From Takakia lepidozioides (lineage: Eukaryota > Plantae > Bryophyta), in assembly GCA_030704615.1 (NCBI GenBank), contig CM060733.1:40858001-40922000 (forward strand): a stretch of DNA of 64,000 nucleotides. The letters are read 5' to 3'. The notes beneath the pieces are model-generated. The model was not told where the DNA came from. It made no database searches and was given only the letters and a program-made list of their open reading frames with translations. Of the stretch, positions 32,256 to 35,244 are shown in pieces. The translations under genes were made by a program, and so were the position numbers. How positions within the stretch are numbered: the stretch's first letter is position 1; each line of letters begins with the position of its first letter.

Positions 32256-32747
32256 TCACTCTGGCCTAATGTGCTGAAGGCTATGGCCACTTGTGTCTGG
32301 TGTTGGCTGTGGCTGCAGACTGACCCATTCAAACCGCCCAGGTAGTGGGATATCCTTCACTGGATCGAAATTGTATCTGTGCCACAACAAAGCACAAAGA
32401 AAAGAGAGTGAGACAGAGATAGATGGAGGGTCTAGTCAGAGTCAACTGCTCCAAAAGCTAATTGTCGAGCGCAGAGCTTAAGTGCAATGGCGTACTTTTC
32501 AGTGAAATGTCTTTGATCTGTTTTCTCAAGCTTGGAGAAGAACTCTTCCATTTCAGTTGGTGATGGAGAATTATATGGACGCCTTTGCACGGGTCTGGAG
32601 GCTTTCTTAAAAGTGGTAGCACCCTTCTTGGCAGGCAGTTTAGACAATGAAGGTGTTGTCTCCTCAACTTCCATTTTGAAATTTGGAGAGGGAGTACTTG
32701 GTCGACTTTGAAATGTGGGGGCACAAGGGAGTTCCTGAGATTGGTCA
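32256..32747 (-). CDS. KRP: KRP/ICK cyclin-dependent kinase inhibitor C-terminal exons (32747-32496, 32376-32256)
   Basis: Spliced SPTEMEEFFSKLEKTDQRHFTEK|YNFDPVKDIPLPGRFEWVSL is the canonical KRP cyclin/CDK-binding C-terminal domain, followed by a 19-aa extension. Confidence 0.88.
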
Positions 32748-33240
32748 CTGCATCCATCCCAAAGAAGTAAAATCAGAATGAATACAGAGATTAGAGCACT
32801 TTTTCCGGTTGATTAACCATTTGTTTGTGCCATTCTGTCATAAACCACCAAGGACCATGTGCCCTGCATAAACAAGGAAATATGTAGAAGAACTGAAAGA
32901 CCAAGAAGGTGTGGGGTGGGGCACAGGAAGTTCTACCAGAACTTGGGTAACTCGAACTGCTTTGTAGCATTCAAAGAGCTACTCCCAAGGGTAGGTTGTG
33001 GCTGATCATGTGGAGCCAAAACGACATACCAGCACACTTTCCTCAGCCCCTGCAGTCACATGACATAAGACTTCAGATGGATGAACCACTAGCCTTGGTC
33101 AAACTGATATATCCTTATTATCTTCCCAAGCCTCTTTTCAACTGTCATTGCAGACCCCTCTCATCTCTCGCTTGCTTGTGGCGCTAATGAACCAGTGGGC
33201 AGACAAAAAAATAAGAAAACAAAAAGATCAGCAACTGCAC

Positions 33241-35244
33241 CTTGCCAACCGAGACATTTTGGAGAGTATTAATAAGCTCATTCCGAGTGTCAAGGTCTGG
33301 GGTGTCATCTAAATAGAGGATGGCTTGCTGGACCATAGCCCTCACTGCCTGCAGCCCATCCCAAACACTTACATAGACTATTAGCATCCAGTGCCTTCCC
33401 CATCATTCATACATACATATGTTTGTTCTTTCACCTTGCTATGATTCTGTTCACTGAAACAACCAGTTACATACCACGGATGACACCACAGTTATGATAA
33501 CATGTATCCCCCCAAGTATTGATCTCCAAATAGAACCTTTCAATTCCACAAACTCAAAAGTTGGTTGCAGAAACCAGAGAGAAACAAGGAATTCCAACAC
33601 ACTACCTGTTTCAGTTGGGTTTGGCGTCGGGAGAGGAGAAGGATCTGATCATTGAGGGTTTTCCAAGCCCGAGCCTCATAACATAACTGGATGATGGCCA
33701 CCACCACCTTTCTGGTTCTTGTGATATCAGCAGCACATCGCATTTGCTTCTCTAGTTTCAACAACTCCTCAATTGCTGCATCCAATCTCTGCTCCTGAGG
33801 AAAATGCAAGCAACCCTTATTGTTAGATTTGAAAGTTCCTATGGTGCCATGTAGGGAAGCCTGACAAGGTGTTGCGGACAGAGCTCCTGTTTAGCTTTTG
33901 ACTATATGTAAAGAGGACAGGCTACGATGACAGAATCCCCACGCTGCAAAAAAAACTTTAGCCAAGAAAAGAGTGGTAAGAGATCTAAAACAGGAAACCA
34001 ATTTACTGAGGTGTTTGGAAGGAAGATAAAAACCCCTGAGAGAGACCAAGTTCTTTTAAGACTTAAGTTTCTTAGAACTTATTGGAAAGGCTGTTACTAT
34101 GGCTGTAAAATCATGGGATAAAGAGTCCCAACGACAAGTGGCGACACAATTTATGTGGAAACAGATGCCACAGGTTCAACTCTAAATTTTCTGCAGCATT
34201 CGTCAAGAAGGTCCACTTCTGCAGAGCCTCATCACAACATCTGCAACTAAAGAGACTAGAACTCAAGCGAGAGTATCATGTCTCCGCTTCGGGCCAAATG
34301 GATACAAGAACTCCTTCCATACTCTTCCCAAGTATTCCACTCGATTTCACTTTTGTCAGCAGTTACTCAGTAAATGTGCTTCAATCACATTATAGTACTG
34401 CTACATGCGCAGGCTGATGCTCCACAGGAGCTCCAGTTGGGACTGCCGTTACAGTAAGCCACTGAAGATGCTCCAATGAGCTCATAATAATTATTTCAAA
34501 CAATCTTAGCTTAGTGAGACTCATTCGTTAATTGACCGAGTAATTATGTGCTCCTCTTTAACGGAAGGGCATCAAATTGCTATTGACCTGATGCTTGCAT
34601 GGAGTTCTTGGGATTAAGTAAAAAGCTTCCATGCTTCAGTCTTAGATTCATAAACCATCACAACTGCTATACGATTAGAAGCAGTAATATGGGACGATTG
34701 CGACACCATAGGCTAGCAGACGTCAAATCCCGAAGATAGAAAGCCCCTCAAGCTCAAACACGCTGACCAGATAAAGCTCTACTAGATGTTGGCACTGTTC
34801 TCATACAGGTTGGGTCCAATGACCCTGCTTCTCAAGCGCTATAGCACACTTCGGTGCCAAAGCAGCGTTAGATAGTTTAGCTGTTAAATTACAGTGCGGA
34901 ATAATGATTTCCACCGTGCAAAAAATGATAATACTTTGATAAATCTATTGGTTCAAGAAGATTGACTCCATTAACTTCATGAATCATTTGCACTGCCGAG
35001 AGAGCAGATTACGATGATCCATAGGACACGACTTAAGGAGGGCCATTTCTCATATTTTACTCATTTTGTGAAACAGAAAACACATGAATAAGTTTGCATG
35101 TCAACATAGCACGTATAAAATAGATTAGACAGTAACCTCAAGGGCGACCACACGTTGAGCTTGAATGTCTCTCTCCAAGGCACCATAGTCCACACCACAG
35201 CAATCCTCAACTTCATTCTCGGCCATCTCTATGTCATCTTCCAT
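33241..35244 (-). CDS. RPN5: 26S proteasome lid subunit RPN5 (PSMD12) N-terminal three exons only (35244-35137, 33794-33606, 33348-33241); possibly the 5' half of a chimeric gene with KRP
   Basis: MEDD...[42 protein letters not shown]...[30 protein letters not shown]...[13 protein letters not shown]. All introns are phase-0 GT-AG; the expected next exon (IYVEIERARL) is absent. Confidence 0.8.

What the first reader, a model, noticed from the sequence alone, without database searches (positions are those of the whole stretch)
32256..35244. Candidate chimeric gene: proteasome RPN5 N-terminus fused to a KRP CDK-inhibitor domain
Three open RPN5 exons (ending phase 0 at 33241) are followed on the same strand by a 20-nt cag|...|gtatgt micro-exon (33049-33030, GLRKVC, phase 0 to 2). 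This puts the KRP exons 32747-32496 and 32376-32256 in frame, giving a stop-free product of about 265 aa with only GT-AG introns. No separate KRP 5' end or further RPN5 exon is visible. KRPs are known proteasome substrates, so a lid-subunit N-terminus and RPN5 promoter on a CDK inhibitor would be an unusual cell-cycle regulator.
Basis: partly seen in the sequence, partly recalled or inferred. Interest (0 to 1): 0.75.

Follow-up and report, generated by a model that had tools for sequence, protein, structure and literature searches.

The report
Moss CDK inhibitor with proteasome domain
This gene, likely from a moss, joins the front domain of a proteasome lid protein (RPN5) to a cell-division brake (a KRP CDK-inhibitor domain); the same joined gene is spliced in peat-moss relatives and on record in Physcomitrium, and the borrowed domain likely sets the brake's stability or partners.

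Summary
Exon 4 runs 33049-32937 (113 nt) and is a fourth, internal RPN5 exon, giving a six-exon, 300-residue RPN5N-KRP protein. The same two-domain protein is on record in 7 Sphagnum species and Physcomitrium patens. The RPN5 part is as constrained as the inhibitor domain (pN/pS about 0.2) and is predicted to fold as six helices. PCI domain and C-terminal helix are gone, so it cannot be a lid subunit. Basic residues invariant in RPN5 are replaced in all fusions, though the window keeps the three core-particle contact residues. Most likely a KRP with a repurposed folded regulatory domain; direct proteasome docking is the bolder reading (about 0.2). No RNA evidence for this species. No paper describing the fusion was found, but two key papers could not be read.

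The parts
35137..35256 (-). Coding exon 1 (40 codons, phase 0): acidic N-terminal tail plus the first helix of the RPN5 N-terminal extension found in moss and gymnosperm RPN5
   Evidence: tblastn to Sphagnum fusions E 6e-10 to 9e-6 and to Sphagnum RPN5 E 2e-4; no Pfam hit alone; first in-frame ATG at 35256, alternatives at 35244 and 35226
33606..33794 (-). Exon 2 (189 nt, phase 0), RPN5-derived helices; carries the equivalents of yeast Rpn5 E43, K44 and K85
   Evidence: PF22241 2-58, E 5e-15; 189 nt in Sphagnum-type genes too; residue mapping
33241..33348 (-). Exon 3 (108 nt, phase 0), RPN5-derived; ends inside the loop that contacts the ATPase ring (after the equivalent of yeast K129)
   Evidence: PF22241 59-94, E 3e-6; 108 nt in relatives; mapping
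32937..33049 (-). Exon 4 (113 nt, phase 0 to 2): an internal RPN5 segment (Sphagnum RPN5 291-328, yeast about 260-297) joined on after loss of about 153 RPN5 codons; its phase-2 end is the RPN5-to-KRP junction
   Evidence: 58% identity over 36 residues, E 3e-8; 113, 116 and 113 nt with phase 0 to 2 in 3 of 3 mapped relatives; lost middle and tail of RPN5 absent from the window
33030..33049 (-).
   Evidence: same string inside the exon, unspliced, in 4 of 4 complete spliced contigs
32496..32747 (-). Exon 5 (252 nt, phase 2 to 2): low-complexity linker with a conserved Ser-Arg-Pro-x-Thr-Pro motif and basic patch, then the first half of the CDI domain (KRP motif 2)
   Evidence: PF02234 5-30; motifs
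32256..32376 (-). Exon 6: second half of the CDI domain (KRP motif 1), short tail and stop codon
   Evidence: PF02234 30-49, E 3e-8, above the curated cut-off; motif
35257..36200 (-). Likely long pyrimidine-rich 5' leader with upstream ATGs; the extent is a guess by analogy
   Evidence: spliced contigs of relatives have 924-1193 nt before the start codon with 5-9 ATGs; window 36400-35257 is 62% pyrimidine with 14 ATGs; no sequence conservation beyond simple repeats

Best explanation
This is a six-exon chimeric gene in which the N-terminal helical domain of a duplicated RPN5 is joined in frame to a KRP inhibitor domain; the KRP end likely binds and inhibits CDKA-cyclin D, and the RPN5-derived domain likely serves as a repurposed, folded protein-interaction module that sets the inhibitor's stability or availability and no longer acts as a proteasome subunit. 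Origin (inferred): an RPN5 duplicate kept exons 1-3 and one internal exon, lost the rest, and was joined through a phase-2 intron to the last two exons of a KRP, once, before Sphagnum and Physcomitrium split. Shown: exon structure, both domain matches, orthologues, splicing in relatives, purifying selection, loss of PCI and C-terminal helix. Predicted: the fold of the RPN5 part. Inferred from family knowledge: CDK inhibition. Inferred only: what the RPN5 part binds.
For: Both domains in one protein in 7 Sphagnum species (three paralogue clusters) and P. patens; 34 of 266 proteins then held carry RPN5-N, the adjacent exon-4 segment and CDI. Four complete intron-free contigs among 22 loci; exon lengths 189/108/113-116 and phases 0,0,0,2,2 equal the window's (all five introns placed in 2 of 3 pairs, four of five in the third). 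pN/pS window versus three relatives: RPN5 part 0.20-0.21 (95% upper bounds 0.30-0.32), CDI 0.26-0.32, linker 0.56-0.68. AlphaFold2 of two Sphagnum homologues: six helices over residues 30-143, block pLDDT 75-93 and 66-92; linker disordered; Foldseek top hits are RPN5 chains, rmsd 1.7-2.9 over 101-121 columns; the retained stretch matches residues 27-129 of the 136-residue yeast Rpn5 N-terminal domain solved alone (5ZMR). Fusions form one group, 100/100 (8 of 27 rows). Signs of a changed surface: RPN5 K94 (100% of 57 true RPN5) and R96 (95%) are replaced in 7 of 7 fusion sequences, K54 in 4 of 7, while fusion-specific E39, E48, K51 and R/K64 are fixed in 7 of 7. PCI and C-terminal parts are absent from the window and from the 17 genomic loci. 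In Arabidopsis the KRP N-terminal region governs instability (PMC9911667, passage); Marchantia KRP blocks division (PMC13237563, passages).
Against: No transcript of this species was examined. No partner of the RPN5-derived domain is known; 'stability or availability' is an inference. The window protein keeps 26 of 28 positions conserved in true RPN5, including all three yeast core-particle contact residues, which fits the docking rival as well. The domain evolves fast in Physcomitrium (branch 1.22, 20 of 28 positions kept), so its role may differ between mosses. Purifying selection could reflect only the need to fold. Synonymous sites are near saturation in window comparisons (pS 0.56-0.62). 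The window protein itself was not folded; models are of homologues with shallow alignments (pTM 0.37-0.39). CDK inhibition by this protein was not tested.
Confidence: 0.55

Rival explanations
1. Built-in proteasome docking: the RPN5-derived domain still binds the alpha-1 subunit of the 20S core or the Rpt3/Rpt4 ATPases at sites left free on unassembled particles, and so delivers the inhibitor (perhaps with its cyclin-CDK) for turnover without ubiquitin, or holds it at the proteasome.
For: The retained domain is the part of Rpn5 that touches the core particle (E43/K44/K85) and the base (V125-F131) (PMC6344052 and PMC6910829, passages). The window keeps E, K and R at the three core-contact positions and the loop up to K129. 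KRPs are proteasome substrates (PMC9911667, passage).
Against: Sphagnum fusions keep 2 of 3 and Physcomitrium 1 of 3 core-contact residues; the neighbouring invariant basic residues are lost in 7 of 7; the junction cuts off I130 and F131. In yeast, mutating the three core-contact residues had little effect on particle stability, which suggests a weak contact that depends on the whole lid. In assembled 26S the site is filled by true RPN5, which Sphagnum retains as full-length genes.
Confidence: 0.22
2. Passenger domain: the fusion was kept because it gave the KRP a new promoter, long leader and start codon; the RPN5 residues are conserved only so that the protein folds harmlessly.
For: Fast divergence in Physcomitrium; the second half of exon 4 looks unconstrained between the window and relatives (pN/pS 0.61-0.98); long leaders with upstream ATGs in relatives.
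Against: 117 codons are kept without deletion in every full-length copy aligned, at a constraint equal to the CDI domain's; fusion-specific surface-type residues are fixed in 7 of 7 sequences; no conserved internal start codon for a KRP-only product is seen.
Confidence: 0.13
3. Intramolecular control: the helical domain folds back on the linker motif or the CDI domain and masks it until a signal, such as phosphorylation of the conserved Thr-Pro site, releases it.
For: A Ser-Arg-Pro-x-Thr-Pro motif is conserved in the otherwise variable linker of nearly all moss copies; helical repeat domains commonly bind short peptides (general knowledge).
Against: Neither single-chain model places linker or CDI on the helical domain with confidence (pTM 0.37-0.39, linker pLDDT under 50), though both rest on shallow alignments.
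Confidence: 0.08
4. Artefact or coincidence in this genome: a truncated RPN5 pseudogene next to a separate KRP gene, or an assembly join.
For: No reads of this species were seen; 39 of 510 splice-site pairs could restore the frame by chance.
Against: Same exon lengths, phases and domain order in spliced contigs of relatives; all six exons open and under purifying selection; no N in the window.
Confidence: 0.02

Closest known systems
Physcomitrium patens ICK/KRP (BAK64054.1 'Inhibitor/interactor of CDK'; RefSeq XP_024401313.1 '26S proteasome non-ATPase regulatory subunit 12-like') and unnamed Sphagnum proteins (e.g. CAM6043993.1, CAK9193107.1, CAK9190307.1)
   Same: Orthologues: same domain order PF22241 then PF02234, same exon-4 segment, one clade. 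The two database names each reflect one half of the same protein.
   Different: The window copy is the least diverged from RPN5 (end branch 0.23; exon 4 RPN5-like to its end; K44 equivalent kept), has a shorter linker, and lacks the Arg-Arg-Leu-Phe motif that precedes the CDI helix in most other moss copies.
Plant ICK/KRP CDK inhibitors (Arabidopsis KRP1-7, Marchantia MpKRP) and animal Cip/Kip p21/p27
   Same: C-terminal CDI domain with both KRP motifs; the P. patens orthologue matches p21 (6p8h_C, E 0.002) and p27 (E about 0.01) over its CDI region.
   Different: Flowering-plant KRP N-termini are short and highly variable (PMC9911667, passage); here the N-terminus is a conserved, predicted-folded RPN5 domain. 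Whether liverwort, hornwort or lycophyte KRPs carry it could not be determined.
RPN5/PSMD12, 26S proteasome lid subunit (spinach 8amz_P, human, yeast; yeast N-terminal domain 5ZMR)
   Same: Exons 1-4 derive from it: 72% identity in exon 2 to Sphagnum RPN5; predicted helices superpose on RPN5 chains.
   Different: Only PF22241 positions 2-94 of 218 plus one internal segment remain; no PCI domain, no C-terminal helix; invariant basic residues are replaced.

Membership tests
Plant ICK/KRP CDK inhibitors | C-terminal CDI domain (PF02234) | tested here: met
   Exons 5 and 6 cover profile positions 5-30 and 30-49 of 49; exon 6 alone passes the curated cut-off; full homologues score 51-62 bits
Plant ICK/KRP CDK inhibitors | KRP motif 2 (acidic helix ending in Phe-Phe) and motif 1 (Tyr-Asn-Phe-Asp ... 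Pro-Leu-x-Gly-Arg-x-Glu-Trp); motif labels recalled | tested here: met
   Both found, at residues 242 and 262 of the 300-residue model
Plant ICK/KRP CDK inhibitors | Binds CDKA and D-type cyclins and inhibits kinase activity | not testable with these tools
   No plant CDK or cyclin sequence was held for a complex prediction; needs an assay
Plant ICK/KRP CDK inhibitors | Nuclear localisation | not testable with these tools
   A simple basic-cluster pattern matched 2 of 6 sequences and not the window's; not a test of location
RPN5/PSMD12 lid subunit | Complete N-terminal helical solenoid (PF22241, 218 positions) | tested here: not met
   Only positions 2-94 plus one 37-residue internal segment; the 153 residues between are absent
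RPN5/PSMD12 lid subunit | PCI domain (PF01399) and C-terminal helix (PF18098) | tested here: not met
   No tblastn hit better than E 0.4 in the 64-kb window and none at E 0.01 in 17 genomic loci; absent from homologues
RPN5/PSMD12 lid subunit | Core-particle contact residues (yeast E43, K44, K85) | tested here: inconclusive
   3 of 3 kept in the window (K85 as Arg, as in plant RPN5), 2 of 3 in Sphagnum fusions, 1 of 3 in P. patens
RPN5/PSMD12 lid subunit | ATPase-contact loop (yeast V125-F131) | tested here: inconclusive
   Present up to K129; I130 and F131 removed by the exon 3/4 junction
Moss RPN5N-KRP orthogroup (P. patens ICK, Sphagnum paralogues) | RPN5 N-terminus, adjacent internal RPN5 segment, linker, CDI, in that order | tested here: met
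Moss RPN5N-KRP orthogroup (P. patens ICK, Sphagnum paralogues) | Six coding exons with phases 0,0,0,2,2 and inner lengths 189/108/113-116 | tested here: met
   (Sphagnum-type loci only; P. patens genomic DNA not examined)
Moss RPN5N-KRP orthogroup (P. patens ICK, Sphagnum paralogues) | Single origin of the RPN5-derived part | tested here: met
   8 fusion rows on one side of a 100/100 branch among 27 rows

The most novel reading that the evidence does not exclude
Mosses replaced the unstructured N-terminal instability region of their CDK inhibitor with a piece of the proteasome itself: the RPN5-derived domain docks the inhibitor, and possibly its bound cyclin-CDK, directly on 20S or base particles, giving a hard-wired, ubiquitin-independent route that couples cell-cycle braking to proteasome assembly state.
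Probability: 0.2. Interest if true: 0.85.

Novelty: new variant of a known kind. Interest (0 to 1): 0.64.

Why it matters
The KRP family is reported to have a single member in bryophytes (PMC13237563), and every full moss KRP seen here is this fusion, so the main KRP-type brake of moss cell division appears to be an ancient chimera of a degradation substrate and a piece of the degradation machine. It is a clean, datable case of exon shuffling that fixed in a core cell-cycle gene, and it changes how the Physcomitrium KRP, already used as a cell-cycle marker, should be read. Because P. patens allows gene targeting, the question of what a lone RPN5 N-terminal domain can do, and whether it can route a protein to the proteasome, becomes directly testable by an in-place domain deletion. 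The architecture already sits in public databases under two conflicting automatic names; none of my searches found it described.

Tried and rejected
20-nt micro-exon and three other frame-restoring donors (92, 98, 107 nt): rejected because RPN5 homology and exon length in relatives point to 113 nt. Search with exon 5 alone for longer proteins: 0 of 98 candidates. Search with the CDI region for KRPs of other plants: 2 of 21 candidates, both Sphagnum fusions; too insensitive to say anything on liverworts or hornworts. Profile search of 50%-identity representatives: of the best 150 of 1525 hits only the P. patens protein holds both domains; several unnamed single-exon fragments resemble the fusion but cannot show linkage. 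ESM Atlas: only RPN5 clusters at score 0.78, under the lead threshold. Idea that exon 4 keeps the Rpn11-blocking helix 13 (yeast 275-285, PMC4749569): the conserved part ends at the Y273/G274 equivalents and the helix itself is mostly decayed, so set aside. Idea that exon 4 caps the truncated solenoid: both models leave it at pLDDT under 50, unresolved. Complex prediction of the RPN5-derived domain with the linker-CDI half of a Sphagnum homologue: no answer (score 0.01, alignment not used), not counted either way. Flank synteny with 17 genomic loci: 0 of 162 tblastn hits outside the gene. Dating the duplication to the moss lineage: the best tree has it (93/90), but an older duplication is not rejected (AU p 0.19), nor is grouping the window copy with Sphagnum (p 0.13). 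Earlier findings of the scan: none by sequence or words. No whole genome was held, so a separate full RPN5 in this species was not checked.

Full report
Observation. On the minus strand the window holds six open exons with GT-AG borders: 35256-35137, 33794-33606, 33348-33241, a fourth starting at 33049, 32747-32496 and 32376-32256. Exons 2 and 3 match the PSMD12/CSN4 N-terminal profile (positions 2-58 and 59-94); exons 5 and 6 match the two halves of the CDK-inhibitor profile. No whole genome and no reads were available for this species, so the case rests on relatives.

Relatives settle it. A search with exon 2 returned 27 proteins among 77 candidates; four carry both PF22241 and PF02234, three from Sphagnum and one from Physcomitrium patens. 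Their clusters (24, 34, 23 and 10 members, up to 15 listed each) include named proteins of 7 Sphagnum species, and the P. patens protein appears both as 'Inhibitor/interactor of CDK' (BAK64054.1) and as '26S proteasome non-ATPase regulatory subunit 12-like'. Full-length RPN5 genes exist separately in Sphagnum. A scan of metagenome contigs gave 22 loci: four intron-free contigs with a complete fusion reading frame, one partial, and 17 genomic pieces. Two of the intron-free contigs match genomic loci at about 100% identity in six blocks. Their exon lengths are x/189/108/113/354/118 and x/189/108/116/375/118 with phases 0,0,0,2,2; a third pair gave four of five introns and the same 113-nt exon. 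The window has the same structure if exon 4 ends at 32937.

The micro-exon is the start of a fourth RPN5 exon. Window 33046-32939 aligns to Sphagnum RPN5 residues 292-327 at 58% identity (E 3e-8). It is a by-product of Cys-Trp-Tyr-Val codons. It does fit the splice consensus better than the 32937 donor (7 versus 5 of 9), so a minor short isoform is not excluded. The model is a 300-residue protein. The 153 RPN5 residues between exons 3 and 4, and the 151 after exon 4, are found neither in the window (best E 0.4) nor in the genomic loci. Exon 1 is also RPN5-derived: moss and gymnosperm RPN5 have the same extension.

Selection, fold and history. Against three relatives, pN/pS is 0.20-0.21 for the 117 RPN5-derived codons of exons 1-3, 0.26-0.32 for the CDI domain, 0.18-0.40 for the first 16 codons of exon 4 (wide intervals), 0.61-0.98 for the rest of exon 4 and 0.56-0.68 for the linker (corrected values; synonymous sites near saturation). 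AlphaFold2 models of two Sphagnum homologues give six confident helices over residues 30-143, a disordered exon 4 and linker, and a moderately confident CDI helix; the window protein was not folded. Foldseek's best hits are RPN5 chains, and the retained stretch corresponds to the yeast Rpn5 N-terminal domain whose solution structure was solved alone (5ZMR). In a 27-row tree the 8 fusion sequences form one group (100/100), next to Sphagnum RPN5 (93/90), with the window copy branching first (94/91). Neither an older duplication (AU p 0.19) nor a different place for the long P. patens branch (p 0.13) is rejected. The fusion is therefore at least as old as the Sphagnum-Physcomitrium split; that the window comes from a moss is inferred from these homologies. 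Liverwort, hornwort and lycophyte KRPs were not retrieved.

How it likely works. The C-terminal domain has both KRP motifs, and the P. patens orthologue matches p21 and p27 weakly over this region; inhibition of CDKA-cyclin D is inferred from the family (Marchantia KRP blocks division, PMC13237563). Without PCI domain and C-terminal helix the protein cannot be built into the lid (established knowledge of PCI complexes; absence shown). The retained domain is the one that in yeast touches the 20S alpha-1 subunit through E43/K44/K85 (PMC6344052) and the ATPase ring through V125-F131 (PMC6910829). Mapped through, the window keeps all three core-contact residues, Sphagnum fusions two and P. patens one; the loop is cut after K129. 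Two neighbouring basic residues that are 100% and 95% conserved among 57 true RPN5 sequences are replaced in 7 of 7 fusion sequences, and four other positions are fixed in new states in all seven (three further RPN5-motif proteins were dropped as too short, and two of the seven are single-exon fragments). A conserved core with a systematically altered surface fits a repurposed interaction module best (0.55). Since the N-terminal region of Arabidopsis KRP1 governs instability (PMC9911667), control of level or availability is the likeliest job. Direct proteasome docking remains open (about 0.2) and is best preserved in this window's copy; a passenger domain (0.13) and intramolecular masking (0.08) are less likely.

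What is in print. Ten full-text searches were run. RPN5 + KRP + Physcomitrella gave one paper, a NEDD8 review seen only as a listing; the other searches aimed at the fusion listed nothing that describes it. I saw passages only of PMC13237563 (no occurrence of RPN5, PSMD12 or proteasome; KRP has a single member in bryophytes), PMC10017697 (PpKRP used as a transcript marker), PMC6910829, PMC4749569, PMC6344052 and PMC9911667. Ishikawa et al. 2011, which I recall as the source of the P. patens cell-cycle cDNAs, and Torres Acosta et al. 2011 on KRP phylogeny were not held, and the supplement of PMC13237563 could not be read; any of them may mention the RPN5 likeness. The library lacks most subscription papers.

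Verdict. A real, ancient chimeric gene, orthologous to the recorded Physcomitrium KRP: a new variant of a known kind, with the architecture present in databases but apparently undescribed. It works like a KRP and passes the sequence tests for that family; it fails membership of RPN5. Interest 0.64.

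Noticed in passing
P0070 residues 245-251; alignment: Most moss copies have an Arg-Arg-Leu-Phe motif just before the CDI helix, like the cyclin-docking motif of animal p21/p27 (label recalled; the P. patens match to p21 spans it). The window copy and one Sphagnum paralogue have lost it.
   Followed up: partly
window 32747-32496 (-), exon 5: A Ser-Arg-Pro-x-Thr-Pro motif is conserved in the otherwise variable linker across moss copies; a candidate proline-directed phosphorylation site or degron.
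   Followed up: partly
P0072, P0073: P. patens gene models on record that keep the RPN5-derived domain but lose half or all of the CDI domain; if real splice forms, they would be RPN5-domain-only products.
   Followed up: no
L001-L004 5' ends; window 36400-35257 (-): Leaders of 924-1193 nt with 5-9 upstream ATGs in relatives, suggesting translational control; no conserved upstream reading frame seen with the window.
   Followed up: partly
L006-L022: Sphagnum keeps three paralogues of the fusion with the same exon structure, in contrast to the single bryophyte KRP reported in PMC13237563.
   Followed up: partly
window 26017-28032 (-) and 60700-61850: An intact 671-codon PPR reading frame with a 303-base repeat unit, and fragmented PPR-like frames near 61 kb.
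   Followed up: partly
window 41275-44268 (+): LTR-retrotransposon pol remnants in several frames (RT, RNase H, integrase zinc domain).
   Followed up: partly
window 17212-18114 (+): An intron-free 300-codon fatty-acid-hydroxylase-family (sterol methyl oxidase-like, label recalled) reading frame; lack of introns may mark a retrocopy.
   Followed up: no
window 20594-21996 (+): F-box reading frame that appears split over two overlapping frames, possibly frameshifted.
   Followed up: no
window 54714-56207 (-), 56642-60500 (+), 51269-53600 (+), 5269-8100 (+): Ordinary neighbours: an intron-free NAD(P)-binding reductase (divinyl reductase-like, label recalled), Vps41, V-ATPase subunit E and a short-chain dehydrogenase.
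   Followed up: no
window 13533-13811 (-) and 49851-50198: Two similar short stretches about 36 kb apart share a translated motif, suggesting a dispersed repeat or duplicated gene fragment; no Pfam hit for the first.
   Followed up: no
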